DNA of 64,000 bases, taken from NCBI RefSeq assembly GCF_963921235.1, contig NC_086097.1, positions 77,378,001 to 77,442,000 on the forward strand, in the 5' to 3' direction. Position numbers and translations under genes: made by a program. How positions within the stretch are numbered: position 1 is the first letter of the stretch; each line of letters begins with the position of its first letter. Of this stretch, positions 4,786 through 61,321 are shown one piece after another. The notes under the pieces are model-generated. The model had not been told where the DNA came from, searched no databases, and saw only the letters and a list, made by a program, of their open reading frames with translations. The stretch is from Mobula hypostoma. Lineage: Eukaryota.

Positions 4786-5727
4786 TTACTTCAAGCTCCC
4801 CTGTCCTCCCCTGATAATTGACTTATCACTATATTCATGCGAGGAAAATATGCGCTGTGTGTTTAATGTTAAATTCGTTAGATAAACCCTTTTAGAAACG
4901 AAATTGAGTGTATTAGCCACTTTATCACCTAAATTCCGGTTGTGATTAACACCCTCACCTCTGAACAGAATTGCCAAAAACGATTTGTGGAAAAAAAGCG
5001 GCAGGCACACACATGCGCACTGGTGCCGCGCAAGGCTTCATGGGTCATGGTAGTCTTTCTTGGGGTCAACACAATGTATTTAACAGCTACTCTTGTCCGT
5101 AGTCAACCCTACCCGCCCCCCCCCCGCCCCGGTCGGCCGGTCTGCAAGAATCTTGTCAATATTAAACCGGTCCGCAGTGCAAAAAAGGTTGGGGACCCCT
5201 GCCAAAGATGTACGGTTGGGGTTTGTGAGCTGTGGGCATGCTATGTTGGCACCAGAGATGCAGTGACATTTGTGGGCTGCCTGCACAATTCCTCACTGAT
5301 TTAGCTTGATGCAAACAATGCATTTCACTGTATGCTTTGATGTTTCCACGTGCATGTGATAATTAAAGCTATTCTGAGATATTAGTGAGCTTAGACTGCC
5401 TGCCATAGGACATAATGTTATGGTAACCCAGCACATCAAGCTTCACAGATACTTGCAGAAACATCTCCCTATAATTGTACACCAGCTGCACTCTGGAGTG
5501 GGAGGTCTAACATTGATGGACTGATTGATTTGTTGGTGCTAAGATTGGTGGTGGTGCACTGTTCCTGTGAGGCATCAACCAGAGGTACAATGTTGAGCAA
5601 TCACTCATTCTGACTGATCTTCTCAGAGTTGACATGGTGGGAGGCAGTCTTCTATCCGAAGCAATGAAAACAGAAGATGGTGTAAACACTCAGCATGTCA
5701 AGCAGCGTCTGAAGGAAGAGGAACAAT

Positions 5728-5764
5728 GTTAACGTTTCAGGTCAAAGACCATTCATCAGAACTG
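5728..5764 (-). ncRNA. Minimal hammerhead ribozyme motif in an old Penelope-like fragment
   Basis: Minus strand reads cagtt-CTGATGA-at-ggtc-ttt-gacc-t-GAAAC-GTT-aac: catalytic core, stem II and short stem I present. Confidence 0.55.
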
Positions 5765-6006
5765 CCACTCATTGATATATCCTTCACTCCAAAGGCACCT
5801 ATCTTAAACACTTGTGGACTGCTAAATGGGAGAAAAAAACCAGTAAGAGGAGTAACCACTTGACCCTTCAAGCCTGTCCTGCTATTTAAAATGTTCATGG
5901 CTGATCTGCCCCACTGCCAGTTCCTCAACACCCTCAATTCCCAGATCTTTTAAAACATTATTCACTTTCTCTCTAAATGCCACAAATTATCTCAGGAGAT
6001 CATGAA

Positions 6007-6448
6007 CACAAGAGATTCTGCAGATGCTGGAAATCCAAAGCAACACATACAAAATCTGGGGGAACTCAGCAGGTCAGACAGCATTGATGGAGAGGAATAA
6101 GTGTGGTAAACCATATATAGAGGTTGTAACTGGGTTACCTGTTTGGGCATGCCTGGAGACACCCCTCTGCTGACTGCTCCTGTGGCTCCTCCTACAGACC
6201 CCTGAATAAAAGCGATTGTGTCACTGCTCCTCCCTCAGTCCAGGACAGATATTCAGCATGGACATTGGTCCATTTACTGTCCATTTCCAGTCTTTTGGAG
6301 TAATTGATAGTGCATCAATAAGCAGTAGACATTTCAAGCCGAGACACTTCAGCCTGATGAAGAGTATTGGTCAGAAGCATCGACTGCTTATTCCCCTCCA
6401 AATATGCCACCTGATCTGCTGAGTTCTTCCAGCATTTTGTATATGTTG
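6007..6448. mobile_element. Older inverted (palindromic) Penelope-like mini-element, split by a solo LTR
   Basis: Left arm ttctgcagatgctggaaatccaaagcaacac.. and right arm ..ctgctgagttcttccagcattttg are diverged reverse complements; degenerate CTGATGA..GAAG core at about 6354-6385. Confidence 0.7.
6102..6317. mobile_element. Solo LTR (216 bp)
   Basis: TG...CA termini; 5-bp TSD ATAAG (6097-6101 and 6318-6322); internal AATAAA; host element rejoins cleanly on removal. Confidence 0.8.
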
Positions 6449-13400: not shown

Positions 13401-13954
13401 AAGATGAATAAAGATGAATAAAGACCCATATCATAAAAGGCAATGGAACTGGAGCATTATTTTTAGTATGAATTAGATGGTGCTACTTTCCTCCCAAACT
13501 GCTCACTATTCCAGATGTATGCTGCTCCTTAACACAATGATCCAGCTTTTCAAACATTGTCCACTTTCACCTTTTTAAAAATGATGCCACTGATTCCAAC
13601 ACAGGAAATGGGTAGCATTAAGCAGACATTGCTCATCCCCAGATGCCCATAAAAAGTGACAGTGAACCATCCTTTTGAACTGCAGTGTGATCACTCCCCA
13701 CAACCTCTCTGTTGAGGATGGTCAGTAAGTGTAAATTCAGCCAGCACTATCAGCATGCCATTAATAAATAAAAATCATCTTCTGTTTAAAACTCTGCATG
13801 ACTGAGAGGGAAATTAGGAAACAGATGCATTTGCTGCCTGTGTCCCTTTCCAAGTGGTAGAGATGGTAGATTTGATATTGCTGAAGAAACTTTTCATTGT
13901 CTTACTGCTGACTAAAAATAGATTTGGGGATAATAACTGACCAGATTAAATCAA

Positions 13955-14037
13955 AAGCACGAGATAGTTTGCAGATGCTGGAAATCCAAAGCAACACACA
14001 CAAAATGCTGGAGGAACTCAGCAGGTCAGGCAGCATC
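13955..14037 (-). mobile_element. Penelope-like terminal-repeat 3' fragment
   Basis: gcagatgctggaaatccaaagcaacacacacaaaatgctggaggaactcagcaggtcaggcagcatc, homologous to 6015-6085 and 42380-42450. Confidence 0.7.
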
Positions 14038-19245: not shown

Positions 19246-22200
19246 TCAATAGACAATAGACAATAGGTGCAGGAGTATGCCATTCGGCCCTTCAAGCCAG
19301 CACCACCATTCACTGTGATCATGGCTGATCATCCACAATCAGTATCCAGTTCCTGTCTTATCCCCATAACCTTGATTCCACTATCTTTAAGAGCTCTATC
19401 CATCTCTTTCTTGAAAGCATCCAGAGACTTGGCCTCCACAGCCTTCTGGGGCAGAGCATTCCATATATCCACCACTCTCTGGGTGAAAAAGTTTTTCCTC
19501 AACTCTGTTCTAAATGGCCTACTCCTTATTCTTAAACTGTGGCCTCTAGTTCTGGACTCACCCATCAGCGGGAACATGCTTACTGCCTCCAGCGTGTCCA
19601 ATCACTTAATAATCTTATATGTTTCAATAAGATCCCCTCTCAGCCTTCTAAATTCCAGAGTATACAAGCCCAGTCACTCCAATCTTTCAACATATGACAG
19701 TCCCGCCATCCCGGGAATTAACCTTGTGAACCTACGCTGCACTCCCTCAATAGCAAGAATGTCCTTCCTCAAATTTGGAGACCAAAACTGCACACAGTAC
19801 TCCAGGTGTGGTCTCACCAGGGCCCTGTACAGCTGCAGAAGGACCTCTTTGCTCTTATACTCAATTCCCCTTGTTATGAAGGCCAGCATGCCATTAGCTT
19901 TCTTCACTGCCTGCTGTACTTGCATGCTTGCTTTCAGTGACTGATGTACAAGAACACCTAGATCTCATTGTACTTCCCCTTTTCCTAACTTGACTCCATT
20001 TAGATAATAATCTGCCTTCCTGTTCTTACCACCAAAGTGGATAACCTCACATTTATCTACATTAAACTGCATCTGCCATGCATCTACCCACTCACCCAGC
20101 CTGTCCAAGTCACCCTGCATTGTCATAACATCCTCCTCACATTTCACACTGACACCCAGCTTTGTGTCATGGGCAAATTTGCTAATGTTACTTTTAATTC
20201 CCTCATCTAAATCATTAATATATATTGTAAACAGCTGCTGTCCCAGCACTGAACCCTGCGGTACCCCACTGGTCACCGCCTGCCATTCCGAAAGGGACCC
20301 ATTAATTGCTACTCTTTGTTTTCTGTCAGCAGCCAACTTTCAATCCATGTCAGTACTCTGCCCCCAATACCATGTGGCCTAATTTTGCCCACTAATCTCC
20401 AATGTGGGACTTTATCAAAGGCTTTCGGAAAGTCGAGGTGCACTGCATCCACTGGCTCTCCCTTGTCCATTTTCATAGTTACATCCTCAAAAAATTCCAG
20501 GGAGATTAGTCAAACACGATTTCTCCTTCGTAAATCCATGCTGACTTGGACCGATCCTGTTACTGCTATCCAGATGTGTCATAATTTCATCTTTTATAAT
20601 TGTCTCCAGCATCTTTCCCACCACCGACGTCAGGCTAACCGGTCTAACCCTGTTTTCCCTCTTCCTCTCTTCTTGAAGAGAGGGACAACAGTAGCCACCC
20701 TCCAATCCACAGGAACTGATCCTGAATCTATAGAACATTGGAAAATGAATACCAATGCGTACACGATTTCTAAAGCTACCTCTTTAAGTACTCTGGGATG
20801 CAGACCATCAGGTCCCAGGGACTTAACAGCCTTCAGACCCAACAGTCTATCCAACACCACTTCCTGCCTAATATAAATTTCCTTCAGTTCATTCATTACC
20901 CTGCGTCCTTTGGCCACTATTAGATCTGGGAGATTGTTTGTGTCTTCCCTAGTGAAGACAGATCCAAAGTACCTGTTCAACTCATCTGACATTTCCTTGT
21001 TCCCCATAATAAATTCACCCGTTTCTGTCTTCAAGGGCCCAATTTTGGTCTTAACTATTTTTTTCCTTTTCACATACCTAAAGAAGCTTTTACTATCCTC
21101 CTTTATATTCTTGGCTAGTCTACCTTCGTACCTCATTTTTTCTCCGCGTATTGCCTTTTTAGTTACCTTCTGTTGCTCTTTAAAAGTTTCCCAATCCTCT
21201 GGCTTCCCACTTGTCTTTGCTATGTTATACTTCTCTTTTATTTTTATACTGTCCTTTACTTCCCTTGTCAGCCACGGCCTCCCCTTACTCCCCTTAGGAT
21301 CTTTCTTCCTGTTTGGAATGAACTGATCCTGAACTTTCTGCATTATTCCCAGAAACACTTGCCATTGCTGTTCCACTGTCACCCCTGCTAGGGTATTGTT
21401 CCATTGAACTTTGGCCAGCAACTCCCTCATAGCACCATAGTTCCCTTTGTTCAACTGTAATACTGACACTTCTGAGTTTCCCTTCTGCCTCTCAAATTGT
21501 AGATTAAAACTTATCATATTATGGTCACTACCTCCTAATGGCTCCTTTACCTCGAGGTCCCTGATTAAATCCGGTTCATTGCACAACACTATATGTAGAA
21601 TTGCGTTCTCTCTGGTAGGCTCCAGTACAAGCTGCTCTAAGAATCCATCTCGGAGGGCCTCCACAAACTCCCTTTCTTGGGGCCCAGTACCAACCTGATT
21701 CCTCCAGTCTACCTGCATGTTGAAAGCCCCTATAACAACTGTAGCATAACCTTTACGACATGCCAATTTTAACTCTTGATTCAACTTACACCCTACATCC
21801 AGACTACTGTTTGGGGGCCTGTAGATAACTCCCATTAGGGTCTTTCTACCCTTAGAATTTCTCAGTTCTATCCTACTGACTCTACGTCTCCTGATTCTAT
21901 GTCCCCCCTCGCAAGGGACTAAGTATCATTCCTCACCAACAGAGCCACCCCACCCCTCTGCCCATCAGTCTGTCCTTTCGATAGGATGTATACCCTTGAA
22001 TATTCATTTCCCAGGCCCTGTCTGCTTGAAGCCATGTCTCTGTTATTTCCACAACATCATACTTACCAATTTCCAACTGTGCCTCAAGCTCATCCACTTT
22101 ATTTCTTATACTCCGTGCATCCATATACAATACTTTTAATTCATTACTCCCCTCACTTTTCACATCAATTCCTATTTCACATGGCCATACTGTACGATCC

Positions 22201-22332: not shown

Positions 22333-22871
22333 GTCAGTCAGTGAGTACATGCAGAATGGAGATGGATTTTTAGTTACTAAGAGAATCCGAGGATGTGTAG
22401 AATGGGGATCTTCAGACACAGGACCAGTTGCAATCGAACTGAAAGGCAGAGCGTCCTTTCTTAGACTTCAGCAAGCCAGCAACCTTTTCTTTCATAACTC
22501 TCAAATGTCCTGAAATTGCTTTGGGTGAATTACTATCTAATTTTCTACCCAGTTATCATGTAAAAAATTCCCTCAGTATTTTTGCCTTCTGCGAGTTTAA
22601 CTGAGCTTGCGTGTGTATCAAAGAGTGATAATGGGCATGTCATTAATCCACCCTGCTCCATGCCTTAGAGTTCTTATTCATGGGAATGCTGCAATATTGC
22701 AAATGCATCTTGAAGATTTTGGAATTCACATTCCACTTTCAACTCAAGTATCCAAATAACCTGGGCTAATATTAAATCTAGAATTATTACCACTAGAGAA
22801 AAATGTTTGCACACTGATTTCAAAGTTGCTGGTGAACGCAGCAGGCCAAGCAGCATCTGTAGGAAGAGGTG

Positions 22872-22909
22872 CAGTCGACGTTTCAGGCCGAGACCCTTCG
22901 TCAGGACTA
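22872..22909 (-). ncRNA. Minimal type I hammerhead ribozyme motif
   Basis: Reverse complement of 22927-22964; intact core. Confidence 0.7.
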
Positions 22910-22926
22910 ACTGAAGGAAGTTCAGT

Positions 22927-22964
22927 TAGTCCTGACGAAGGGTCTCGGCCTGAAACGTCGACTG
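22927..22964 (+). ncRNA. Minimal type I hammerhead ribozyme motif
   Basis: tagtc (stem I)-CTGACGA-agg/gtctcgg/cct (stem II)-GAAAC-GTC-gactg (stem I'); palindromic ACGT replaces stem III; predicted cleavage after C22959. Confidence 0.7.
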
Positions 22965-23929
22965 CACCTCTTCCTACAGATGCTGCCTGGCCTGCTGCGT
23001 TCACCAGCAACTTTGATGTGTGTTGCTTGAATTTCCAGCATCTGCAGAATTCCTGTTGCACACTGATTTCACTCTTTTTGTTGAACTACCTGCAGTTTTC
23101 CTTCAGCTCAAATCCCATACTATTCCTTACATCTGTAAGCCCATTATTTGTCTGCAGAAAATAAAGGTTAATATCAGTATAGCCACAAAAAAAGAAGCTA
23201 GGCTGTAAGTATAGATGACAAATTTATTATTCTAGTCATTGTTAATTAACTTATAGGGCAAATATGTAATAACATTTTAATCAAACCCTAAAATTCTTCA
23301 TGCTACCCTGCTCAGCTTTATTGCCAGTTATAGCTTGTGATGACAAGCTAAATTTTGACCTTATAACTGTCTACCGAACTAGGCACTGAACTTCTCCATT
23401 GATCCTGCTGGTACCAGGATAAACATTCGTTTCATCATTGAGCTTCTTATAGTGAATGGAGAAACAAAATAAAACAGTGTAGATTTAGATGGGAGGAGTT
23501 AATTTCCTAAGCTATTCACAGAACAACTCCCAGGGCAATTTTGCTTATTGAATAAATATGCTCTCAAAATTGCTTCTTATTTTGAACTGAAGGAAATCCA
23601 TTTGTAATACACCTGCACTTTTTCCATGAAGATCGTAAAACTAAGAGACTGCAGAAAAGATTCCCTACTAATGTGGAGTTACAGAATATCCCTTTGACAG
23701 TCTTCTCATTACTTCTGCAAGGCTGTGGTTGGAGTTCACTCTGCACAATATTTAATGATACAACAGTTTGAAGCTACTTCAAACATTGCCACCAAGTATA
23801 GAATGCTTTGCAGTCTGAATCGATGATCTTCGATAGACATATATCTATTTTTCAAGAATTTCGGTATTCTGCAATGAGACACATTTAGGAGGCAGCCAAA
23901 AACTGTTGGAGTTCTAAGTATATCATGAT

Positions 23930-29858: not shown

Positions 29859-30311
29859 TTGGCAAGGAGCTTCATGGAGCTCATCTGCTTACTGGCCATT
29901 CTCCGATACTCCGCAGGCACAGCATGGAAAACAGCGGTGTGTGGCCATGTGGATGACTGATTCCAGGCTGGTCCACCGACTGAGGCATCACAGGAGAAGG
30001 AACGTCAGTATTTTATGGCAGCAAATGCTGCATACGGATGTTTTTGTACTCGAGCAATCACTCCCTTCCTCTCTTTCTCTCGATGAGAGGGAGAGTTTGC
30101 TGCTGATTCTTGAACTGAAGAATCTCAGAATAAAAAGCAACGCAGCAGACTCTGACGTCATAACAGCGACTGTTTGTTAGTCTCCCCTTTCGCTGTGAAA
30201 TGAGTCCCTTGTTAGTGGGAGAGAGAGCCTGTGGCATGCTGCACTTTTTGTTGACTGCAGTTCCTGGTCTCTGTTTGGAGGCTTTGCTGTTGCTTGGTGG
30301 GCGGTGAGTGC

Positions 30312-30735
30312 TGACGCTTTCTGCTGCACTGAGTGGAGGAGGGTGAGGACATTGACGCTTTCTGATGCACTGAGTGGAGGAGGGTGAGGACATTGACGCT
30401 TTCTGATGAAATGGGTGGAATGGGAGGGAGGACATTGACGCTTTCTGCTGCACTGAGTGGAGGAGGGTGAGGACATTGACGCTTTCTGATGCACTGAGTG
30501 GAGGAGGGTTCGGACATTGACGCTTTCTGCTGCATTGAGTGGAGGAGGGTGAGGACATTGACGCTTTCTGCTGCATTGAGTGGAGGAGGGTGAGGACATT
30601 GACGCTTTCTGCTGAAATGGGTGGAGCAGGAGGGAGGACGTTTGATGCTTTTTGATAAAATGGGTGGAGCGGGAGTGAGGATGTTGACGTTTTTTGGAAA
30701 TGGGTGGACGGGAAGGGAGGATGTTAATGCTTTGC
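30312..30735 (+). repeat. 41-bp minisatellite (about 10 units) inside a LINE-like 3' UTR
   Basis: Unit TGACGCTTTCTGCTGCACTGAGTGGAGGAGGGTGAGGACAT; starts at 30312, 30353, 30394 and onward. Confidence 0.92.
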
Positions 30736-31940
30736 TCCTGCTTGTGCTTGGGAGAGGGGGCTTTGGGTTCTAATATTTTTCTGTCATTTATTCTTTTGGG
30801 GTTCTTCTGGTTTTGTGGATGTCTGCAAAGAGCAAGAATTTCAGGTTGTATGTATACATTCTCTGATAATAAATGGAACTATATGAACCACTTGGACTAT
30901 TTGAATGAGAAGAGTTGGTCATGCTGCTTTACAGCCAGTTGATGTTCATGGATTGTTGTTGTTGGTTTTCTCCCAGTCTGGCTAATTGCAATATTTGCTG
31001 CAGTCCCTGCATCGGATTTTTCTTGTCTAATAAAATCATGGAATGATGTACTGTTGAGGAAGTCTCCCATTCCCCCCTGAAGAGCAGATACTCTAAATGG
31101 CTGTAGCTGTTGTGATGAAAACTCTAACCAGGGTCAACCCTTGTAAAGTCGCGGGGCCTGATAACATACTTGGTCAGGTGCTGAGGGACTGTGCGGCCCA
31201 CTTAACTGAGGTTCTAACAGATATCTTCAATATTTCTCTGGAACAGTCCTCTGTCCCCTCAGACTTCAAGGAGACCACCATCATCCCAATGTGACAGTAA
31301 CCTACCTCAACAACTACTGTCCAGTGGCACTGACCTCAACAATAATGAAGTGCTTTGAGAGACTGGATTACATCCCTCCTTCCTGCTGGATTAGAGCCTT
31401 TCCAGTTTGCTTATTGCTCAAATGGGTCCAGTTGATGATGACTTAACCGCTACACTCCATTCTTTGTCCCACCTAAAAATGGTGGCTAATATAGTCTATT
31501 GACTTCAGTTTGTCCTTCACTATGACCATATCTCAATTTGAACTGTATAAGCTGTCTTCATTGGGTCTCAACACCTCTCTCTGTAAATGGATCCAGGACC
31601 CGTTGACAGAAAGGTCATAGTCAGTCTGTGTTTACAGAAACATCTCTAGCTCCATCACGCCAAGATCTGGTGCTCCCCAGGGCTGTTCATGCTGCTGACG
31701 CATGACTGCACTGCTGGATTCAGTTCAAACCGAATTATCAAGTTTGGGGACACAACAGTGGTTGGTCTCATCAACCCTGATGCTGAGGTGGTGTATAGGG
31801 AGGAGGTCGAGCAGCTGGTAGAATGGTGTGAGGACAACAATTTGAGTCTCGCTGTGGACAAGACCACAGAGATGATTGTGGACTTTAGGAAGGTGCAGAC
31901 TGACCACTCCACTCGGCACATATATAGTTCCTCCATGAAG

Positions 31941-33115
31941 TGTCATAAGATGGTGGCTGGGAACGGACCCAAGTGCAAGACACAGACACTGAAGGACTAG
32001 GGACAACACTAGAATACAGGGTGAGAGCAAGGACATGGACACGAAAACCGGGAACCCAGAACAGGATTGGACAAGAGAGCTAGGAGCCCTGGCTTGGACT
32101 CCGAGCCAGAGACTGGACAAGGACCCAGTACCTGGGTCTTGCCTCTGACTCGGACCCCAGAACTAGGCAAGGACAAGGCTTGGCAGGCAGGCAGGACGAG
32201 ACTGGAGTCTTCAGGCTTGAGGCTAGAGGCGAAGCTTGGCAGGAGGCAGGAGGCTGGAGTCTTCAGGCTTGAGGCTAGAGGCTAGAGACTTGAGGTGAGG
32301 CTTGGCAGGAGGCTAGAGGTTAGAGACGAGGCGAGGCTTGGCAGGAGGTAGGAGGCTGGAGTTCAGGCTTGAGGCTAGGCAGGAGGCTGGAGTCTTCAGG
32401 TTTGAGGCTAGGCAGGAGGCTGGAGTCTTCAGGTTTGAGGCTAGGCAGGAGGCTGGAGTCTTCAGGCTTGAGTCTAGGCAGGAGGCTGGAGTCTTCAGGC
32501 TTGAGGCTAGGCAGGAGGCTGGAGTCTTCAGGCTTGAGGCTAGGCAAGCTCCTCCTGGGCAGGGCATGGATCACCACCCGATGGAGGCACGGAACAGGAA
32601 GGGACAGAACCAACCGCAGGTAACGGCAAGACGGCCTGGCTTACCCGACAGAGGCAAGGGACAGGAAGGGACAGAACCAACCGCAGGTAACAGCAAGATG
32701 GCCTGACTTACCTGGGCAGAGGCAAGGGACAGGAAGGGAGCTAGGTACAGGGTGGCTCCAGGACAAGACTGCAGGTGAGACGAGGCGAGAGTTACCAGCA
32801 AGACAAAGCAAGGCTTCAGGCAATGCAAGGCGAGACGAGAACTTCTGGCGAGGCGAGAGTTACCGGCAAGACAAGGCAGGGCTTCAGGTAAGAAAACAGA
32901 AGGGAGAGGAAGGGATACAAGGAGTAAGGACAAGAACAATCCAGCAGCCATGCCTGGGTCTCTGGAGGTATTTATGCAGCCAGCCCCAATGAGATTCAGT
33001 TGACTCAGTTAGAGTTCAACAAGAACAGAAACAGGATAGACAGGAAAACCTGGAGCAAGGGTCGATGGACCAGACCGTGAACCAGAATACGGACTTCACG
33101 GACCGGACCATGACA
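31941..33115. mobile_element. Solo LTR (1175 bp) with internal tandem repeats, Gypsy-like
   Basis: TGTCAT...ATGACA termini; 5-bp TSD TGAAG/TGGAG (one mismatch); interrupts the Rex1 RT. Confidence 0.8.
32195..32545 (+). repeat. 33-bp minisatellite within the LTR
   Basis: Unit GAGGCTAGGCAGGAGGCTGGAGTCTTCAGGCTT; about 5 near-perfect units at 32371-32545 plus degenerate units upstream. Confidence 0.9.
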
Positions 33116-33799: not shown

Positions 33800-36682
33800 C
33801 ATAACCCTCCATTCCTTTCCTGTCCATATAGCTGTCCAGTTTAACTTTAAACGACAACATCGAACCTGCCTCAACCACTTCTGCTGGAAGCTCGTTCCAC
33901 ACAGCCACCACTCTCTGAGGCTAAAAAAGTTCCCCCTCATGTTACCCCTAAACTTTTAGCCTTTAACTCTCAACTCATGTCCTCTTGTTTGAATCTCTCC
34001 TACTCTCAATGGAACAAGCCTATCCACGTCAACTCTATCTATCCCTCTCATAATCATAAATACCTCTATCAAGTCCTCCCCCAACCTTCTACGTTCCAAA
34101 GAATAAAGATCCAACTTGTTCAACCTTTCTCTGTAACTTAGGTGATGAAACCCAGGTAACATTCTAGTAAACCTTCTCTGTACTCTCTCTATTTTGTTGA
34201 CATCTTTCCTATAATTCGGTGATCAAAACTGTACACAATACTCCAAATTTGGCCTCACCAATGCCTTGTACAATTTCAATATTACATCCCAACTCCTATA
34301 CTCAATGCTCTGATTTATGAAGGCCAGCATACCAAAAGCTTTCTTCACCATCCTGTCCACATGAGATTCCACCTTCAGAGAACTATGCACCATTATTCCT
34401 AGATCCCTCTGTTCTACTACATTCTTCAATGCCCTACCATATACTATGTAGGTCCTATTTTGATTAGTCCTACCAAAGTGTAGCACCTCACATTTTTCAG
34501 CATTAAACTCCATCTGCCATCTTTCAGCCCACTCTTCTAACTGGCCTAAATCTCTCTGCAAGCTTTGAAAACCTACCTCATTATCCACAACTCCACCTAT
34601 CTTAGTATCATCTGCATACTTACTCATCCAATTTACCACCCCATCATCCAGATCATTAATGTATATGACAAATAACATTGGACCCAGTACAGATTCCTGA
34701 GGCACACCACTAGTCACTGGCCTCCAATCTGACACCACTACTCTCTGGCATCTCCCATCCAGCCACTGCTGAATCCATTTTACTACTTCAATATTGATAC
34801 CTAACGATTGAACCTTCCTAACCAACCTTCTGTGTGGGACCTTGTCAAAGGCCTTACTGAAGTCCACATAGACAACATCCACCACTTTACCCTCGTCAAA
34901 AAATTCCTAGTAACCTTTTCAAAAAATTCAATAAGATTAGTCAAACATGACCTTCCACGCACAAATCCATGTTGACTGTTCCTGATCAGACCCTGTCTAT
35001 CCAGATAATTATATATACCATCTCTAAGAATACTTTCCATCAATTTACCCACCACTGACGTCAAACCCACGGGCCGATAATTGCTAGGTTTCCTCTTAGA
35101 ACCCCTTTTAAACAATGGAACCACATGAGCAATACACCAATCCTCCGGCACCATCCCCATTTCTAATAACATTTGAAATATTTCTGTCAGAGCCCCTGCT
35201 ATTTCCACACTAACTTCCCTCAGTGTCCTACGGAATATCCTGTCAGGACCCAGAGACTTATCCAATTTTATATTCCTTAAAAGCACCAGTACTTCCTCTT
35301 CTTTATTCATCATAGTTTCCATAACTTTCCTACCTGTTTCCCTTATCTTACACAATTCAATATCCTTCTCCTTAGTGAATACCGAAGAAAAGAAATTGTT
35401 AAGGATCTCCCCCATCTCTTTTGGCTCCACACATAGCCGTCCTCTCTGATTCTCTAAGGGACCAATATTATCCCTCACTATCCTTTTGCGATTTATATAA
35501 CGGTAGAAACCCTTTGGATTTATTTTCACCTTACTTGCCAAAGCAACCTCATATCTTCTTTTAGCTTTACTAATTTCTTTCTTAAGGCTCTTTTTACATC
35601 CTTTATATTCCTCGAGCACCTCATTCACCCCATGCTGTCTATATTTCGTTCTTCAGAGATCTCTCTGTTTTTCCGAACAAAGTTTCCAATATCCCTTGAA
35701 AACCATGGCTCTCTCAAACTTTTAACCTTTCCTTTCAACCTAACAGGAACATAAAGATTCTGTACTCTCAAAATTTCACCTTTAAATGACCTCCATTTCT
35801 CTATTATATCTTTCCCATAAAACAAATTATCCCAATCCACTCCTTCTAAATCCTTTCGCATTTCCTCATAGTTAGCCTTTCTCCAATCAAAAATCTCAAC
35901 CCTGGGTCCAGATCTATCCTTCTCCATAATTATATTGAAACTAATAGCATTGTGATCACTGGACCCGAAGTGCTCCCCAACACAAATCTCTGTCACCTGA
36001 CCTATCCCATTCCCTAACAGGGGATCCAACACTGCCCCTTCTCTCATTGGTACCTCTATGTATTTCTGCAAAAAACTATCTTGCACACATTTTACATACT
36101 CCAAACCATCCAGCCCTTTTACAGTATGGGCTTCCCAGTCTATGTGTGGAAAATTAAAATCTCCCACAATCACAACCTTGTGCCTACTACTAATATCTGC
36201 TATCTCCTTACAAATTTGCTCCTCCAATTCTCGCTCCCCATTTGGTGGTCTATAATACACCCCAATAAGAGTTACTGCACCTCTCCCATTCCTCAGTTCC
36301 ACTCAAATAGCCTCCCTAGATGAGCCCTCTAATCTATCCTGCCAGAGCACCGCTGTTATATTTTCTCTGACAAGCAATGCAACACCTCCCCCTCTTGTCC
36401 CTCCAATTCTATCACACCTGAAGCAATTAAATCCAGAATATTTAGTTGCCAATCACACCCCTCCTGTAACCATGTTTCACTAATAGCTACCAGATCATAC
36501 TTCCAGGTATCAATCCATGCTTTAAGCTCATCCACCTTTCTTACAATGCTCCCAGCATTAAAATAAATGCATTTAAGAAATTTTCCACCTCTTACTCTCT
36601 GTTTATCACTAACTGTGCAAACAATTTTAGTATTTTCTTTTTCTTCCTTCTTCCCTACATCTGTTCCTACACTCTGGTTCAC
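33800..36682 (-). pseudogene. CR1 ORF2 (APE endonuclease-reverse transcriptase), frameshifted
   Basis: Pieces 36356-36682, 35625-36302 (GDFN, SDH), 34801-35628, 34223-34885 (DFSKAFD, KYADD), 33956-34162. Confidence 0.93.
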
Positions 36683-38718: not shown

Positions 38719-39173
38719 CGAGGGGTGATTGATAAGGTCATGGTCTAAGACAGATGGAGATGAGGAGAAACTTCAAACTTTCTGCATTTTCACTCAAAGA
38801 GTTGACCTGCATGTGCATGTAACGACAGCTGTATAACTGATCTCCTTCTACCTTAGGCCCCGAACTTATCAATCACCCCTGCTGTGGACCACCTGGAGGT
38901 CCAAGATGCTCTTGTTACATGCACATGCAGTTCAACTCTGAGTGATACTGCAGAAAGTTTGACGTTAATAACCTATCTCCTTCTACGTGAGGCCACGAAC
39001 TTATCAATCACCCCTGCTGTGGACCACTTCTACAAAGAAGGGATCAGTATGCTCTACGACCGCTGGACTGTGTGTGTACATGTAGGAGGGGACTATGTTG
39101 AAAAATAAATGTGCAAGGTTTTCTAAAACTGACTCCTTCTACCTTAGGCCATGAACTTATCAATCACCCCTCG
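38719..39173 (+). mobile_element. Mariner-derived MITE with extra internal TIR copies
   Basis: About 40-bp TIR CGAGGGGTGATTGATAAG..; TA TSD (38717-38718, 39174-39175); transposase C-terminus FYKEGISMLYDRW..GDYVEK*. Confidence 0.92.
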
Positions 39174-41560: not shown

Positions 41561-42462
41561 TGATTCAATTTTACCAAACAGGATTACTAAGAAATATACA
41601 GTATCTGATGCTGCACAATGATGCAGCACAAGTATAATGGGTTGGATAGTTTGAAGTGTGTATATTTTAATGCGAGGAGTATTATCAGTAAAGGTAATGA
41701 ACATGGATCAGTGCATGGAACTACATTTGTATGATGTTGTAGCCAATACTGAAGCTTGGTTGAGACAGGGGCAGGAATGGTGATTAATGTATCAGGTTTT
41801 TGAAGTTTTAGAAAAGCTAGAGGAGGAAGTAAAAGAGATGGTGGAGTTACACTATTAATCAGGATAATATCACAGCTGCATTCATAATGGAGGGGTCAGA
41901 CTCTGAGTCCATTTGGGTGGAACTCAGGAATAGGATGGGTGCAATCACACTGATGAGGTTGTATTACAGACCCCCTAATAGCCACTGGGACATTGAGAAA
42001 CAGATATGTAATCAGATTAAGGAAACGTGTAAAAATAATAAGGTTGTTGTCATGGGAGATTTCGACTTCCTGGGACCTTCTTAGTGTAAGAGGTTTAGAT
42101 GGGGCTGAATCTGTTAAGAGTATTCAGGAAGGTTTTTTAAATCAATACGTAGAGGGACCAATGAGAGGAAGGAGCGCACTGGATCTCGTGTTGGGTCATG
42201 AGCCTGGCCAGGTGACTGACCTTTCAGTAAGTGAACAGCGACCACAACTCCTTATCTTTTAAGATAGCTATAGATAAGGTTAGGTACGGTCCTTGTGGGA
42301 CAGTTTTAAATGGGAGTAGGCAAAATTACAGGGGCGTTAGGCAGGAACTAAGAAGAGTTAATTGGGAACAACAGGAATTCTGCAGATGCCGGAAATTCAA
42401 GCAACACACATCAAAGTTGCTGGTGAACGCAGCAGGCCAGGCAGCATCTGTAGGAAGAGGTG

Positions 42463-42500
42463 CAGTCGACGTTTCAGGCCGAGACCCTTCGTCAGGACTA
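42463..42500 (-). ncRNA. Minimal hammerhead ribozyme motif (intact)
   Basis: Identical core to 22927-22964. Confidence 0.7.
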
Positions 42501-42830
42501 ACTGAAGGAAGAGTGAGTAAGGGATTTGAAAGTTGGAGGGGGAGGGGGAGATCCAAAATGATAGGAGAAGACAGGAGGGGGAGGGATAGAGCCAAGAGCT
42601 GGACAGGTGATAGGCAAAAGGGGATACGAGAGGATCATGGGACAGGAGGTCCGGGAAAAAAGACAAGGAGGGGGGGGGACCCAGAGGATGGGTAAGAGGT
42701 ATATTCAGAGGGACAGAGGGAGAAAAAGCAGAGTGAGAGAAAGAATGTGTGCATAAAAATAAGTAACAGATGGGGTACAAGGGGGAGGTGGGGCCTTAGC
42801 GGAAGTTAGAGAAGTCAATGTTCAACTCCC

Positions 42831-43289
42831 TTGTCCATTCGTCCCCCCCATCCCTCCCCACTGATCTCCCTCCTGGCACATCCGTGTAAGCGGAACAAGT
42901 GCTACACATGCCCTTACACTTCCTCCGTTACCACCATTCAGGGCCCCAAACAGTCCTTCCAGCTGAGGCAACACTTCACCTGTGAGTCGACTGGGGTGAT
43001 ATACTGCGTCTGGTGCTCCCGATGTGGCCTTTTATATATTGGCGAGACCCGACGCAGACTGGGAGACCGCTTTGCTGAACATCTACGCTCTGTCCGCCAG
43101 AGAAAGCAGGATCTCCCAGTGGCCACACATTTTAATTCCACATCCCATTCCCATTCTGACATGTCTATCCACGGCCTCCTCTACTGTAAAGATGAAACCA
43201 CACTCAGGTTGGAGGAACAACACCTTATATTCCGTCTGGGTAGCCTCCAACCTGATGGCATGAACATCGACTTCTCTAACTTCCGCTAA
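42831..43289 (+). pseudogene. Penelope-like element GIY-YIG endonuclease domain (5'-truncated ORF)
   Basis: CKRNKCYTC Cys linker (Neptune hallmark), VIY-C..CSRC..YIGET, RFAEH, VATHF, terminal E..LIFRLG..PDGMN. Confidence 0.92.
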
Positions 43290-43581
43290 TGCCCCACCTC
43301 CCCCTCGTACCCCATCTGTTACTTATTTTTATGCACACATTCTTTCTCTCACTCTCCTTTTTCTCCCTCTGTCCCTCTGAATATACCTCTTGCCCATCCT
43401 CTGGGTCCCCCTCCCTTGTCTTTCTTCCTGGACCTCCTGTCCCATGATCCTCTCGTATCCCCTTTTGCCTATCACCTGTCCAGCTCTTGGCTCTATCCCT
43501 ACCCCTCCTGTCTTCTCCTATCATTTTGGATCTCCCCCTCCCCCTCCAACTTTCAAATCCCTTACTCACTCTTCCTTCAGT

Positions 43582-43619
43582 TAGTCCTGACGAAGGGTCT
43601 CGGCCTGAAACATTGACTG
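43582..43619 (+). ncRNA. Hammerhead motif, mutated (GAAAC-ATT instead of GAAAC-GTC)
   Basis: CTGACGA at 43587-43593 and GAAA present; two CpG-type substitutions destroy the ACGT palindrome. Confidence 0.5.
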
Positions 43620-44364
43620 CACCTCTTCCTACAGATGCTGCCTGGCCTGCTGTGTTCACCAGCAACTTTGATGAGTTAATTGGGAACACCTTTTATCTGG
43701 CAAATCCACATTAGATGTGGAGGGTGTTTAAAGATCAATTCAACAGAGTATAGGAAAAGTATGTTTCTGTTCGAAGGAAGGAAACCAATGGAAAGATAAG
43801 AAAACCTTGGATGTCCAGAGAGGTAATGAATTTATGAATTTAGTCAAGAAGAAAAAAGAAAAGTATGTAAAGCTTTGGAAGTCAGGATCAAATGATGGAC
43901 ATGAGGAGTATAAAGAAGCCAGAAAAGAAATAACAAAGGGAATTAGGGAAGTCAAGAGGGGCCATGAAAAGTCCTTGGCAAGTAGAGGTAAGGTGAATCA
44001 CATGACATTTTATATATACTTCAAGAATAAAAGGATAACTAGGGGGAGGGTGGGACCACTCAAGGTTAAAGGGGGGAGGGACATTTGCTTGGATGCAGAG
44101 AATGTAAATGAGGTACTTAATGAGTACTTTGCTTTACTACCTACCAAGAAAAAGGACATGGAGGACCAGGAGATCAGTGTCAAGTGTATAAATATGTTAG
44201 GGCATTTGGAAGTCAAAGAGGAGGAAGTGTTGGGCCTCCTAATGAGTATTAAGATGGATAAATTCCCAGGACTTCATGGGATTTACTGCAGATTATTGAA
44301 GGAGGCAAGAGACAAGTTTTCTGGGCCTTGATCAGTATATTTGTATCCTCTCTAGCCACAGGTA

Positions 44365-44786: not shown

Positions 44787-47548
44787 TAGCCACAGGTAAG
44801 GTCCCAAAGGACTGGTGAGAGGCTAATGTTGTACCTCTATTTAAGAAGGGAACAAGGAAAACCCTGGGAACTATATACTAATGAGTCTCATGTCAGTTGT
44901 AGGGAAATTGCTGGAGAATATTCTTAGTGATAGGATATATGAGCACTTGGAAACCCATGGCCTAATGAGGGAAACCCAGCATGGCTCTGTGCGTGGCAGG
45001 TTGTGCCTTACCAACTTGAGCTTTTTGACGAGGTGACTCCAGAGATTGATGAGGGTAGGACATTGGATGTTGTCGATATGGATTTGAGTAAGACATGTGA
45101 CAAAGTCCCTCATGGGAGGCTAATCCAGAAGATTAAGATGCATGGGATTCGCGATGAATTGACTGTTTGGATTCAGAACTTGGTTGCGCACAGAGGACAG
45201 GGTACTGGTTGAAGACACTTCTTTGAGCTGAAAGTCTGTAAATAGTGGTTCTGCAAAGATCTGTACTGGGACAACTGCTGTTTGTAATGTATATAAATTA
45301 CCTGGATGAAAATGTAGATGGGTGGCTTAGCAAATATGGAGATGATACCAAGATTGGTGGAGTTGTGGATTGTGCGGAAGACTGTCAAGGAATACAGCAC
45401 AATATAGACCAGTTGCAGATATGGGCTGAGGAATGGCAAATGGAGTTTAACCCAGATAAATGTGAGGTGCTGCACCTTGGTAGGGCAAATGCAAGGAGAC
45501 AGTACAGGGCAAGGTCCTTAACAGTGCTGCTGAGCAGAGGGGTCTTGGGATCCAAGTTCATAGCTGCTTCAAAGTGGCTACACAGGTCAAAAAGGTGGTT
45601 AAGAGGGCTTATGGAATGCTTTCTTTTATTAGTTGAGGCTTTGAGTTAAAAATCAGGAGGTTATGTTGTAACTTTATAGAACTCTGGTTAGGCTCCATCT
45701 GGCTACATAGCATGCAGTTTTGCTTGGTCGACTTTTGGAAAGATGTTGAAGTTTTCGAGAGGGTACAGCAAAGGTTTACTGGGATGCTGCCAGGATTATG
45801 CTATCACGAGAATCCAGATAAACTTGGATTACTTCCTGTGGAGCACTGGAAGCTGAGGGGAGATATGATAGGAGCTTACAAGATTATGAGAGGCATAGAT
45901 AGAGTGGACAGAGAGTACCTTTCTCCCAGGGTTGAAATGTCTAATACCAGAGGGGGTATTAAGTTGAGAAGGGGTCGGTCAAGGAAGATGTGAGGGATAA
46001 ATTTTTTACTAAGAGTTGTGGATGCCTGAAATTCACTACTTCGTATGGTGGTAGAGGCCAATACATTAGAGGTTTTTGAGAAATATTTGGATCGGCACAG
46101 GGACGTCAAGAAGATGGAGGGATATGGACATAGTGTAAGTGGGAGGGATTAGTGTTTAGGTGTTTTTGATTTGCTTTTTAGCTAGTACAGCACAACAATG
46201 TGGGCCGAATGGCTATACAGCTCCAGTGAACTGGTTCCAATACTGTCTGAATGTGGTACACAGTGCTGTCGGGTGGCTTTCCTCTCAACGCTGGATTTCC
46301 TTGCAGCTAGAAGAAAACATGATAGTCTAGTTAGCAACTGTAGTTTACTGTTAATTTATCTGAATGGCAGGAGAATCAGTGGGGAGCTGAGAAACACATG
46401 AGAAAGAATAGATTACAGGGTGATAATTGTGGAGGGTGGGGGTTTGGGGATTGATGTGAGTTGGCATTGACTTTAAGCCTAAATTATGTCCTTCTATGTT
46501 GAAATGGAATATGAAAACACATGCCATGCCTAACTAACCTGACTGAAAATCCTTCTGACAGAATAAGCCTTTTGGAAGAGCAGAAGACCATAAAATATAT
46601 GGTAGGAGCAGAATTAGGCCATTTGGTCCATCGAGTCTGCTCCACCATTTCATCATGGTTGATCCAGTTTTCTTCTCAGCCCAAATCTCCTGCCTTCTTC
46701 CTGTATCCCTTCATACCCTGACCAATCAAAATCTATCAACCTCTGCCTTAAATATACATAAAGTCTTGGCCTCCACAGCTGCCTGTGGAGAAGAATTCCA
46801 CAGATTCACCACTCTCTGGCTAAAGAAATTCCTCTTCATCTCCGTTCTAAAAGGACACCCCTCTATTTTGAGGCTGTGTCCTCTGGTCTTAGACTTTCCT
46901 ATCTTAGGAAACATCTTCTCCACATCCACTCTATCAAAGCCTTTCACCATTTGATAGGTTTCAATGAGGTCACCCCTCAATCTTCTGAATTCCAGCAAAT
47001 ACAGGCCGAGAGCCATCAGATGCTATTGCCTTCATATGACAAGCCATTCAACCCTGGAATCATTTTTGTGATCCTCCTTTGAACCCTCTCCAGTTTCAGC
47101 ACATCATATCTAAGACAAGGGCCCCAAAACTGCTCACAATACTCCAATTAGGGAGTCACCAGTGCTTTATAAAGTCTCAACATTACATCCTTGCTTTTAT
47201 ATTCTAGTCCTCTTGAAATGAATGCTAACACTGCATTTGCCTTCCTCACCACAGACTCACCCTGTAAATTAGCCATTATGGAATCCTGCACGAACGCTCC
47301 CAAGTCCCTTTGCATCTCAGTTTTTTTCGTATTTTCTCTCTACTTAGGACACAGTCAACACTTTCATTTCTTTAACCAAAGTTCATGATCATACACTTCC
47401 GGACAGTGTATTCCATCTGCCATTTCTTTGCCTATTTACCCAATCTGTCTAATTCCCTCTGTAGCCTCCCTACTTCCTCAAAACTACCTGCCCCTCCATC
47501 TATCTTCATATCATCTGCAAACTTTGCAATAAAACCATCAATTCCATT

Positions 47549-50500
47549 ATAGAAACATAGAAAATAGGTGCAGGAGTAGGCCATTTGGCCCTTCGAGCCT
47601 GCACCGCCATTCAGTATGATCACGGCTGATCATCCAACTCAGAACCCTGTACCAGCCTTCCCTTCATACCCCCGATCCCTTTAGCCACAAGGGCCATATC
47701 TAACTCCCTCTTAAATATAGAGAATGAACTGGCCTCAACTGTTTCCTGTGGCAGAGGATTCCACAGGTTCACCACTCTCTGTGTAAAGAAGTTTTTCCTA
47801 ATCTCGGTCCTAAAAGGCTTCCCCTTTATCCTCAAACTGTGACCCCTCGTTCTGGACTTCCCCAACATCGGGAACAATCTTCCTGCATCTAGCCTGTCCA
47901 ATCCCTTTAGAATTTTATACGTTTCAATCAGATCCCCCCTCGATCTTCTAAATTCCAACGAGTATAAGCCTAGTTGATCCAGTCTTTCATCATATGAAAG
48001 TCCTGCCATCCCAGGAATCAATCTGGTGAACCTTCTTTGTACTCCCTCTATGGCAAGGTTGTCTTTCCTCAGATTAGGGGACCAAAACTGCACACAATAC
48101 TCCAGGTGTGGTCTCACCAAGGCCTTGTACAACTGCAGTAGTACCTCCCTGCTCCTGTACTAGAATCCTCTTGCTATGAATGCCAGCATACCATTCGCCT
48201 TTTTCACTGCCTGCTGTACCTGCATGCCCACTTTCAATGACTGGTGTATAATGACACCCAGGTCTCGTTGCACCTCCCCTTTTCCTAATTGGCCACCACT
48301 CAGATAATAATCTGTTTTCCTGTTTTTGCCACCAAAGTGGATAACCTCACATTTACCCACATTAGGTTGCATCTGCCATGAATTTGCCCACTCACCCAAC
48401 CTATCCAAGTCACCCTGCATCCTCTTAGCATCCTCCTCACAGCTAACACTGCCACCCAGCTTCCTGTCATCTTCAGACTTGGAGATGCTGCATTTAATTC
48501 CCTCATCTAAGTCATTAATATATATTGTAAACAACTGGGGTCCCAGCACTGAGCCTTGCGGTACCCCACTAGTCACTGCCTGCCATTCTGAAACGGTCCC
48601 ATTTATTCCCACTCTTTGCTTCCTGTCTGCCAACCAATTCTCTATCCACATCAATACCTTACCCCCAATACTGTGTGCTTTAAGTTTGCACACTAATTTC
48701 CTGTGTGGGACCTTGTCAAAAGCCTTTTGAAAGTCCAAATATACCCCATCCACTGGTTCTCCCCTATCCACTCTACTAGTTACATCCTCAAAAAATTTTA
48801 TGAGATTCGTCATACATGATTTTCCTTTCACAAATCCATGCTGACTTTGTCGATGATTTCACTGCTTTCCAAATGTGCTGTTATCACATCTTTGATAACC
48901 GACTCTAGCATTTTCCCCACCACCGATGTCAGGCTAACCGGTTATAATTCCCCAGTTTTTCTCTCCCTCCTTTTTTAAAAAGTGGGATTACATTAGCCAC
49001 CCTGCAATCCTCAGGAACTAGTCCAGAATCTAAAGAGTTTTGAAAAATTATCACTAATGCATCCACTATTTCTTGGGCTACTTCCTTAAGCACTCTGGGA
49101 TGCAGACCATCTGGCCCTGGGGATTTATCTGCCTTTAATCCCTTCAATTTACCAAACACCACTTCCCTACTAACATGTATTTCCCTCAGTTCCTCCATCT
49201 CACTGGACCCTCTGCCCCCTACTATTTCCGGAAGATTATTTATGTCCTCCTTGGTGAAGACAGAACCAAAGTAGTTATTCAATTGGTCTGCCATGTCCTT
49301 GCTCCCCATAATCAATTCACCTGTTTCTGTCTGTAGGGGACCTACATTTGTCTTAACCAATCTTTTTCTTTTCACATATCTATAAAAGCTTTTACAGTCA
49401 GTTTTTATGTTCCCTGCCAGTTTTCTCTCATAACCTTTTTTCCCCTTCCTAATTAAGCCCTTTGTCCTCCTCTGCTGGACTCTGAATTTCTCCCAGTCCT
49501 CAGGTGAGCCACTTTTTCTGGCTAATTTGTATGCTTCTTCTTTGGAATTGATACTATCCCTAATTTCCCTTGTCAGCCACAGGTGCACTACCTTCCATGA
49601 TTTAATCTTTTGCCAAACTAGGATGAACAATTGTTGTAGTTCATCCATGCGATCTTTAAATGCTTGCCATTGCATATCCACCGTCAACCCTTTAACTGTC
49701 ATTTGCCAGTCTATCTTAGCTAATTCACGTCTCATACCTTCAAAGTTACCCTTCTTTAAGTTCAGAACCTTTGTTTCTGAATTAACTATGTCACTCTCCA
49801 TCTTAATAAAGAATTCCACCATATTATGGTCACTCTTACTCAAGGGGCCTCTCACGACAAGATTGCTAATTAACCCTTCCTCATTGCTCAATACCCAGTC
49901 TAGAATAGCCTGCTCTCTAGTTGGTTCCTCTACATGTTGGCTCAAAAAACCATCCCGCATACATTCCAAGAAATCCTTCTTCCTCAGCACCCTTACCAAT
50001 TTGGTTCACCCAATCTATATGTAGATTGAAGTCACCCATTATAACTGCTGTTCCTTTATTGCACACATTTCTAATTTCCTGTTTAATACCATCCCCAACC
50101 TCACTACTACTGTTAGGTGGCTTGTACGCAACTCCCACCAGCGTTTTCTGCCCCTTAGTGTTATGCAGCTCTACCCATATCGATTCCACATCCTCCCGGC
50201 TTATGTCCTTCCTTTCTATTGCGTTAATCTCCTCTCTAACCAGCAATGCTACCCCACCTCCTTTTCTTTCATATCTATCCCTCCTGAATATTGAATATCC
50301 CTGAATGTTGAGCTCCCATCCTTGATCACCCTGGAGCCATGTCTCTGTGATCCCAACTATATCATATTCATTAATAACAATCTGCACTTTTAATTCATCC
50401 ACCTTGTTACGAATGCTCCTTGCATTGACACACAAAACCTTCAGGTTTGCTTTTACAACACTCTTAGCCCTTATACAATTATGTTGAAAAGTGGCCCTTT

Positions 50501-61207: not shown

Positions 61208-61321
61208 ACAAACAAGAGAAAATCTGCAGATGCTGGAAACCCAAGCAACACACACAGAATGCTGGAGGATCTCAGTAGGCCAGGCAGTATCTATGAAAAA
61301 GAGTACAGTCGACATTTTGGG
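61208..61321 (-). mobile_element. Penelope-like terminal-repeat 3' fragment
   Basis: aaatctgcagatgctggaaacccaagcaacac..cagtcgacattttggg; breaks off inside the hammerhead core. Confidence 0.7.

What the first reader, a model, noticed from the sequence alone, without database searches (positions are those of the whole stretch)
22807..23071. 240-bp palindromic mobile unit made of two back-to-back hammerhead ribozyme motifs
Seen: 96-bp arms (22820-22915 and 22921-23016, one mismatch, 5-nt loop), a 42-nt tail and a 16-bp TSD. Each arm carries a CTGACGA..GAAAC-GTC core pointing outward. There is no coding sequence. Established: Penelope-like elements carry minimal hammerheads in their terminal repeats and often insert with an inverted repeat. 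Inference: this is the minimal form of that architecture. Any transcript through it, in either direction, holds one sense ribozyme that competes with a 96-bp hairpin. That could make it a regulated self-cleaving switch, an ADAR/Dicer substrate, or a non-autonomous retrozyme/MITE-like family.
Basis: partly seen in the sequence, partly recalled or inferred. Interest (0 to 1): 0.75.

Follow-up and report, generated by a model that had tools for sequence, protein, structure and literature searches.

The report
Mirror-image Penelope retrotransposon stub, ray genome
This mirror-image sequence is a real but ordinary stub of a very abundant Penelope-like jumping gene, likely built afresh at each insertion rather than copied as a unit and predicted to fold so that its ribozyme motif is blocked, and the many such stubs likely record the element copying one stretch of its RNA from both sides of the DNA cut.

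Summary
The palindrome, both hammerhead motifs, the tail and the 16-bp TSD are real. The unit is two short pieces of the pLTR end of a young 3.5-kb Penelope-like element (PLE; Neptune-type motifs; intact 1,042-aa RT–GIY-YIG ORF elsewhere; 39,055 exact tail matches), joined head to head. It is not an amplified family: 1,827 similar palindromes exist, 50 consecutive ones show 43 different junctions, and the four with this exact junction differ in subfamily, tail side and arm ends. It is predicted not to be a switch: the antisense arm is always transcribed first and pairs with the core (P>0.99). Inverted pLTR + one-sided tail + TSD and opposite-strand hammerhead pairs are published PLE features, and this scan found the same in other shark or ray genomes. 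The useful part is the statistics: one tail only (46 of 46; 0 of 48 partners tailed), arms share subfamily SNPs, arm lengths are coupled (46 of 48), and 5' ends pile up just before the hammerhead, not at its cut site. Best mechanism, inferred: both target strands prime at the two known RT start sites on one RNA segment and run off its 5' end.

The parts
22807..22822 (+). Left copy of the 16-bp target-site duplication; its last 3 nt also match the end of the untailed arm
22820..22920 (-). Untailed arm: PLE pLTR positions -15 to +85 (C of CTGACGA = +1), includes the apparent 5-nt loop 22916-22920
   Evidence: L044
22873..22908 (-). Minimal type I hammerhead motif, minus-strand copy; predicted cut after 22877
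22921..23058 (+). Tailed arm: PLE pLTR positions -10 to +127
   Evidence: L044
22928..22963 (+). Minimal type I hammerhead motif: stem I 4 bp, core CUGACGA, bulged A, stem II 4 bp with G.U at 10.1-11.1, GAAA, palindromic ACGU stem III; predicted cut after C22959
23017..23058 (+). PLE 'tail' (present on one arm only); in full-length copies it runs on into the ORF
23056..23071 (+). Right copy of the 16-bp target-site duplication; first 3 nt shared with the tail
42367..42824 (-). Sibling insertion of the same family: tailed arm (99% identical to the finding's tailed arm over 135 nt)
42825..43676 (+). Sibling insertion: untailed arm with the 3' end of the ORF (GIY-YIG, 42843-43289) and pLTR; 16-bp TSD at 42355-42370 and 43673-43688

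Best explanation
The unit is a single insertion of a young Penelope-like retrotransposon, made of two short pieces of the element's hammerhead-bearing pLTR end joined head to head, likely built anew during this insertion and predicted to be inert as a ribozyme. Shown: the parent is a 3.5-kb element with an RT + GIY-YIG ORF; about half of tailed insertions have this inverted form; exactly one arm has the tail; both arms carry the same subfamily letters; arm lengths are coupled; 5' ends pile up from +10 to -20. Inferred mechanism: the endonuclease makes a staggered cut about 16 nt apart; one target strand primes reverse transcription at the far end of the tail (about +130) and the other at its near end (about +85 to +100) on the same RNA segment; when that segment is the 5' end of the transcript both cDNAs run off just upstream of the hammerhead; the two cDNA ends are then joined by end repair, often with 1-3 nt of microhomology or a short insert. 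Odds: PLE insertion by-product 0.95; two separately primed cDNAs 0.65; run-off at an RNA 5' end 0.55.
For: Parent: same-family insertion at 42367-43676 with GIY-YIG ORF end; read-through copies with a 3,514-bp unit, 3 of 10 fetched with a 1,043-codon open frame (L274 1,042 aa), RVT_1 E 2.8e-5 and GIY-YIG E 1.1e-3, both under Pfam's cut-off. Abundance: 39,055 exact tail 22-mers, 62,809 exact core 22-mers (may include sister families), 1,827 back-to-back cores within 40 nt. Architecture in 90 of the first 91 tails on C1: 50 inverted (47 with TSD), 2 inverted running out of the locus, 34 simple, 4 other. One tail only: 46 of 46 same-family palindromes picked on the junction alone (4 of 50 dropped as sister-family or diverged); 0 of 48 partners tailed. 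Arms share diagnostic letters: 44 of 45 at +46 against a shuffle mean of 18.9; 92 of 95 at each of three sites. Arm lengths: 36 short/short, 10 long/long, 2 mixed, Fisher p 1e-8; the untailed arm reaches >20 nt further in 19, the tailed arm in 9. 5' ends: 2.13 per 100 nt at +10..-20 against 0.12-0.19 in the three long zones; peak at -2/-3: 12 of 69, p 6e-5, and 10 of 39 in a second, slightly overlapping set; 4 of 18 short simple insertions begin at -2 within one base of the TSD; an initiator-like YYANWYY (consensus recalled) has its A at -3. Literature: two RT start sites bound the tail and both strands are cut and extended in vitro (PMC11167929).
Against: No RNA 5'-end data: the transcription start is inferred from DNA ends only. 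The sequence before the hammerhead also looks like a 3' splice site, as in D. virilis Penelope (PMC4209133, PMC2377424), so the pile-up could be a splicing- or pause-related stop. The -2/-3 peak in inverted junctions may partly come from microhomology. A second peak I first saw at -17/-18 was mostly a subfamily SNP and vanished (5 of 69, p 0.20). Copying the same segment twice needs strand displacement or two RNAs; neither is shown, and arms disagree at the non-CpG diagnostic sites in 3 of 95 each against a 1% background, this locus among them. 34 of 90 insertions have no inverted arm. The samples come mostly from one contig.
Confidence: 0.7

Rival explanations
1. Same PLE origin, but the second arm is made by fold-back: one cDNA (or an antisense template) self-primes at the junction and copies itself, and the endonuclease trims the far end, leaving one tail.
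For: Proposed for head-to-head palindromic junctions in rotifer PLEs (PMC3846280, passage seen). Explains shared SNPs and coupled lengths as well. Many junctions carry short inserts or microhomology: 14 of 46 overlap by 1-3 nt, 25 have inserts.
Against: Either arm can be the longer one (19 against 9), up to about 1 kb, so neither arm is always the primed one; the untailed ends cluster at +83..+103, matching a second RT start site as in PMC11167929.
Confidence: 0.2
2. The pile-up of 5' ends is a reverse-transcriptase stop (3' splice site, branch point, purine-rich cDNA or RNA structure) in a longer RNA, not run-off from a transcription start. This concerns only why the stubs are short.
For: Polypyrimidine tract, branch-like CTTAC/CTCAC and CAG/TAG directly before stem I; the D. 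virilis Penelope intron ends at helix I (PMC4209133). The ends are spread over about 40 nt.
Against: Four simple insertions start at -2 within one base of the TSD with no upstream exon sequence; no significant peak at the branch-like position; both arms are short together, which independent pausing would not give.
Confidence: 0.3
3. The palindrome is a non-autonomous element (MITE- or retrozyme-like) that is itself transcribed and re-inserted.
For: Some junctions recur: one 12-nt junction 5 times in 50; the exact junction 4 times. Tandem retrozyme-like arrays of this family exist.
Against: Recurrent junctions sit on different subfamily haplotypes, on both tail sides and with different arm ends (the 4 exact matches carry G, C, T, G at +46; 3 have the tail on the other arm). 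Lengths form a continuum up to the full element. One sense hammerhead per strand, not tandem.
Confidence: 0.03
4. A host-used, regulated self-cleaving switch or dsRNA (ADAR/Dicer) element at this locus.
For: Intact core letters and a very stable 96-bp hairpin.
Against: Core paired to the opposite arm with P >= 0.997 in the full and in the nascent transcript; needs a sense partner to dimerise (PMC4209133); G.U in place of the conserved G10.1-C11.1 in 309 of 339 motifs; the copy is young and one of at least 1,827; no sign of selection was tested or seen.
Confidence: 0.03

Closest known systems
EN+ Penelope-like element insertions with inverted 5'-truncated pLTR, one-sided 30-40-bp tail and TSD (Pen2a_Av, PMC3846280; general scheme, PMC8557442; D. 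virilis Penelope, PMC2377424; passages seen)
   Same: Head-to-head pLTRs, tail on one arm only, TSD, variable truncation, partial tandems, C-terminal GIY-YIG ORF in the parent.
   Different: No ORF remnant between the arms in this copy; TSD 13-18 bp rather than 8-10; tens of thousands of copies, which allows statistics.
Minimal hammerheads (min-HHR) of metazoan PLEs (Cervera and de la Pena 2014, PMC4209133; first half of the text read)
   Same: Core letters, bulged nucleotide after A9, short helix I, palindromic 15.2-16.2; that paper already notes dual min-HHRs about 100-700 bp apart on opposite strands, tied to truncated PLEs.
   Different: Cores here are 27 bp apart; stem II is 4 bp and closes with G.U, not G-C.
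PAc (Poseidon from Anolis carolinensis) in vitro mechanism (Frangieh et al. 2024, PMC11167929; main text read, supplements not seen)
   Same: Two internal RT start sites bounding the tail about 100-130 nt downstream of the hammerhead; both strands cut; hammerhead cleavage not needed.
   Different: The main text does not derive inverted insertions from one start site per strand, and saw no strand difference in start site; this family has the CX4CxxC linker of Neptune/Nematis, absent in Poseidon.
Non-LTR retrozymes (bioRxiv 10.64898/2026.07.22.740005, first fifth and passages seen)
   Same: Non-coding, type I hammerhead, derived from PLE pLTRs.
   Different: Retrozymes are same-sense tandem repeats with at least two consecutive hammerheads; this unit is inverted with one sense motif per strand.
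LINE-1 twin priming (recalled, no call)
   Same: Both target strands prime; 5' inversion; microhomology at the junctions.
   Different: L1 inversions join non-overlapping parts of the RNA; here both arms copy the same segment.

Membership tests
EN+ Penelope-like element (parent family) | Single ORF with RT and C-terminal GIY-YIG endonuclease | tested here: met
   1,042-aa ORF in L274; RVT_1 at 533-695 and GIY-YIG at 945-1019, both below Pfam cut-off; DKG and YIDD visible
EN+ Penelope-like element (parent family) | CCHH motif with two cysteines between GIY and YIG | tested here: met
   GVIYCVRCSRCGLLYIG followed by histidines, read by eye (definition PMC8557442)
EN+ Penelope-like element (parent family) | pLTRs from partial tandems, carrying a hammerhead | tested here: met
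   Sense hammerhead region at both ends of a 3,514-bp unit in L274, L276 and others
EN+ Penelope-like element (parent family) | Inverted 5'-truncated copy, one-sided tail, TSD | tested here: met
   50 of 90 insertions inverted, 47 with TSD; 46 of 46 one tail
Neptune/Nematis clades | CX2-5CxxC linker between RT and EN | tested here: met
   CKRNKCYTC
Neptune clade proper | Placement in an RT phylogeny with named references | not tested
   No named PLE reference set was available; Neptune versus Nematis left open
Minimal type I hammerhead ribozyme | Core nucleotides C3 U4 G5 A6 N7 G8 A9, G12 A13 A14 A15.1, U16.1 H17; stems I and II | tested here: met
   (stem I 4/4, stem II 4/4 pairs)
Minimal type I hammerhead ribozyme | Conserved G10.1-C11.1 pair | tested here: not met
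   G.U in 309 and G-C in 22 of 339 motifs; this copy has G.U
Minimal type I hammerhead ribozyme | Covariation support for the stems | tested here: inconclusive
   Copies are too young; mostly decay changes, a few G.U/G-C and U.G/U-A swaps
Minimal type I hammerhead ribozyme | Self-cleavage (as a dimer) | not testable with these tools
   Only a weak DNA footprint: 3 true arm ends at +29 of 33 in +11..+50
Non-LTR retrozyme | Tandem same-sense units with at least two consecutive hammerheads | tested here: not met
   Inverted, one sense motif per strand
MITE-like amplified unit | Many copies with the same ends and the same internal junction | tested here: not met
   43 junctions in 50; 4 exact matches differ in haplotype, tail side and ends

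The most novel reading that the evidence does not exclude
The tens of thousands of young insertions of this family are a natural record of the PLE integration reaction: a protein dimer uses its two RT start sites one per target strand on the same RNA segment (asymmetric twin priming), and run-off at an RNA 5' end just before the hammerhead yields the gene-less palindromes. This would explain both the inverted pLTR and the one-sided tail, and with an intact 1,042-aa ORF at hand it can be tested in vitro.
Probability: 0.45. Interest if true: 0.6.

Novelty: new member of a known kind. Interest (0 to 1): 0.3.

Why it matters
As a ribozyme switch or new mobile unit it does not hold up. What remains of value: how PLEs make inverted repeats and a one-sided tail is described as unresolved (PMC8557442, passages), and this family gives unusually clean counts (one tail in 46 of 46, coupled arm lengths in 46 of 48, 5' ends just before the hammerhead) that tie the in vitro two-start-site result to genomic structure. 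The genome also carries at least 1,827 such ~100-bp hairpins, a possible dsRNA load that was not tested. Eight searches of the held library listed no paper whose title or abstract start reports such statistics or this ray family; subscription journals and repeat databases were not covered, and earlier notes of this scan reached the same reading in other sharks or rays.

Tried and rejected
Rfam scan: no match at gathering threshold. Single-arm folding does not give the hammerhead fold as MFE, z about 0: uninformative for a minimal motif. First search with the whole palindrome returned 30 loci enriched for near-identical junctions and suggested a hot spot at -15; it is query-biased and was not used for frequencies. 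A -17/-18 peak (the p 1.6e-6 there is inflated) was rejected after proved to be dominated by a subfamily SNP at -19; variant-aware recount gave p 0.20 and 0.84; (184 and 371) are therefore only background. The drop from 62,809 to 19,948 matches on extending to -26 agrees with the pile-up but mixes mutation, subfamily variants and sister families. Hammerhead cut site as the templates' 5' end: 4 ends at +26..+32 of 138 arms; 4 of 33 at +29 in a wider set (p 0.009 uncorrected), one a false end and one explained by stem I microhomology: at most a minority. RNA: no RNA holder on record; four guessed-RNA runs are contigs only and cannot show ends, strand or editing. Lunse et al. on dimer cleavage was not held and is cited only through the review PMC6765202 (passages). 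No earlier notes near this place or by sequence. Whether the locus lies in a host intron was not determined.

Full report
OBSERVATION. The structure is as described. Arms 22820-22915 and 22921-23016 are 99% complementary, the 16-bp TSD is exact, and the hairpin is far beyond chance (z -26.9, 0 of 200 shuffles). Each strand has one hammerhead-like core. I number element positions from the C of CTGACGA (+1); the predicted cut is after +28 (C22959). The left arm is -15..+85 on the minus strand and the right arm -10..+127 on the plus strand, so the 'loop' is the five extra bases of the left arm and there is no spacer. Three bases at each outer end are shared with the TSD.

PARENT ELEMENT. The window holds a second insertion of the family at 42367-43676 with the same layout but longer arms, one of which ends an ORF with a GIY-YIG motif. 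Copies elsewhere extend this to a 602-codon RT + GIY-YIG frame. The tail runs on into shared sequence in 20 of 30 long-tail loci; of 10 such loci fetched at length, three have a 1,043-codon open frame, and pLTRs recur at about 3,514 bp. L274 encodes 1,042 aa with DKG, YIDD, a CX4CxxC linker and GIY-CxxC-YIG (Pfam hits below cut-off). By the definitions in PMC8557442 (passages) this is an EN+ PLE with the Neptune/Nematis linker; no tree was built. The closest named proteins come from rays (Mobula 87-94%, Hypanus 77-88%), so the host is likely a ray.

IS THE PALINDROME AN AMPLIFIED UNIT? No. Exact counts in the genome: 39,055 tail 22-mers, 1,827 pairs of back-to-back cores within 40 nt, 4 with this junction. 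The first 50 such palindromes on contig C1, this one included, show 43 different junctions. The four exact matches carry G, C, T and G at diagnostic position +46, have different arm ends and flanks, and three have the tail on the opposite arm. The commonest junction (5 of 50) also occurs on three haplotypes and both tail sides. Recurrence therefore reflects a preferred joining zone, not descent. In 90 of the first 91 tail matches on C1, 50 are inverted pairs (47 with TSD, mostly 13-18 bp), 34 are simple tailed copies, 6 are open-ended or other; arm lengths range continuously to over 1 kb, and 10 of the 90 are mini palindromes with two whole cores like the finding. The 30 loci with 1.5-kb flanks may hide some long inverted partners.

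RULES OF THE INVERTED FORM. (a) One tail: 46 of 46 same-family palindromes picked on the junction only have one arm ending at +123..+136 and the other at or before +103 (42 of 46 at +83..+103) (four loci dropped as sister-family or diverged); 0 of 48 partners of tailed arms are tailed. (b) Shared template: arms agree at +46 in 44 of 45 (shuffle mean 18.9, maximum 30) and in 92 of 95 short pairs at each of three diagnostic sites. The finding's one mismatch is at such a site (+56). (c) Coupled lengths: 36 short/short, 10 long/long, 2 mixed (p 1e-8); either arm may reach further (19 and 9). (d) 5' ends: 55 of 138 arms end at +10..-20, 2.13 per 100 nt at risk, against 0.19, 0.12 and 0.17 in the long zones and 0.49 around the cut site. 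With subfamily variants allowed, -2/-3 is a peak (12 of 69; 10 of 39 in a second set that overlaps slightly) and -17/-18 is not. Four of 18 short simple insertions start at -2 within one base of the TSD, two with a one-base ambiguity.

MECHANISM. Frangieh et al. (PMC11167929, main text read; supplements not seen, their Fig. S2 on genomic ends may bear on this) showed that a PLE protein cuts and extends both target strands, starts RT at two internal sites that bound the tail, and does not need hammerhead cleavage. The rules above fit one start site per strand on the same RNA segment (inferred). Because the tail is the start of the element's own ORF region, the first such segment lies at the 5' end of the transcript; copying it gives two stubs of 100-145 nt that end just before the hammerhead, whereas priming at the downstream pLTR gives two long arms (inferred). 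I held the twin-priming reading before consulting earlier notes; the run-off idea came from notes e1-8028094 and e1-8623187 and was then tested here on DNA ends only. An initiator-like match has its A at -3 (consensus recalled), but the same region resembles a 3' splice site, and in D. virilis the start lies upstream of an intron that ends at helix I (PMC2377424 passages; PMC4209133). Fold-back self-priming (PMC3846280) remains a rival. Junction overlaps of 1-3 nt (14 of 46) and inserts (25 of 46) point to end-joining repair.

THE RIBOZYME. The motif meets the minimal type I pattern except for G.U at 10.1-11.1. Such motifs showed no activity as monomers and low activity as dimers (PMC4209133; review PMC6765202). 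In the palindrome the complement of the sense core is always transcribed first; predicted pairing of every core base to the opposite arm is at least 0.997 in the full transcript and in the nascent plus-strand transcript. The two motifs are on opposite strands and cannot form the active dimer in one RNA. A switch is therefore unlikely. Arm ends at the cut site are slightly in excess (3 true of 33), at most a hint that a minority of templates were cleaved. RNA data were unusable.

COMPARISON AND NOVELTY. Inverted pLTR, one-sided tail and TSD are the textbook PLE layout (PMC3846280, PMC8557442, PMC2377424), and dual minimal hammerheads on opposite strands were noted in 2014 (PMC4209133). It fails the retrozyme test (not same-sense tandem; bioRxiv 10.64898/2026.07.22.740005) and the MITE test. 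Eight earlier notes of this scan describe the same thing in other shark or ray genomes; they are unchecked and are not counted as support. Verdict: new member of a known kind, interest 0.3. The bolder reading, that these counts reveal asymmetric twin priming with 5' run-off, has probability about 0.45 and would merit 0.6.

Noticed in passing
L273:3974-5236 (G000:C2, about 157.816 Mb): Tandem array of 4.1 copies of a 310-bp unit, 99% alike, made of the element's 5' part from -5 to about +305, one same-sense hammerhead per unit: a young retrozyme-like derivative of this PLE.
   Followed up: partly
L183, L186, L191, L192, L194, L198: Six read-through copies share only 135-207 bases past the tail pattern with the others and then diverge or repeat: possibly more short tandem derivatives or a further 3' end near +275..+350.
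   Followed up: no
L274:2233-5361 (-), L275, L282: Copies with an uninterrupted ~1,042-codon ORF; the first ATG lies in the tail region and is GTG in the finding's haplotype.
   Followed up: partly
window 43551-43582 and all long copies: Polypyrimidine tract, branch-like motifs and CAG/TAG just before the hammerhead resemble a 3' splice site; database proteins of rays with host-gene names match this ORF at 77-87%, which may be exonisation or annotation artefact.
   Followed up: partly
window 5688-6434, 13950-14037, 61210-61317: Older, 70-87% identical sister-family pLTR ends; 5688-5763 (-) with a decayed hammerhead.
   Followed up: no
window 19249-21275, 47549-49580, 61623-62944, 33929-35152, 44800-45909: Multi-copy 1-2 kb repeats, 64-94% alike, probably LINE fragments (self-comparison only; not identified).
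   Followed up: no
window 38721-39171; 30285-30741; 32176-32739: A diverged ~300-bp palindrome with internal repeats, and two short tandem-like repeat regions.
   Followed up: no
junctions of L001-L030 and L104-L182: Many junctions contain short copied patches of neighbouring sequence after an AG/CT match, resembling templated inserts of polymerase-theta end joining (resemblance recalled).
   Followed up: partly
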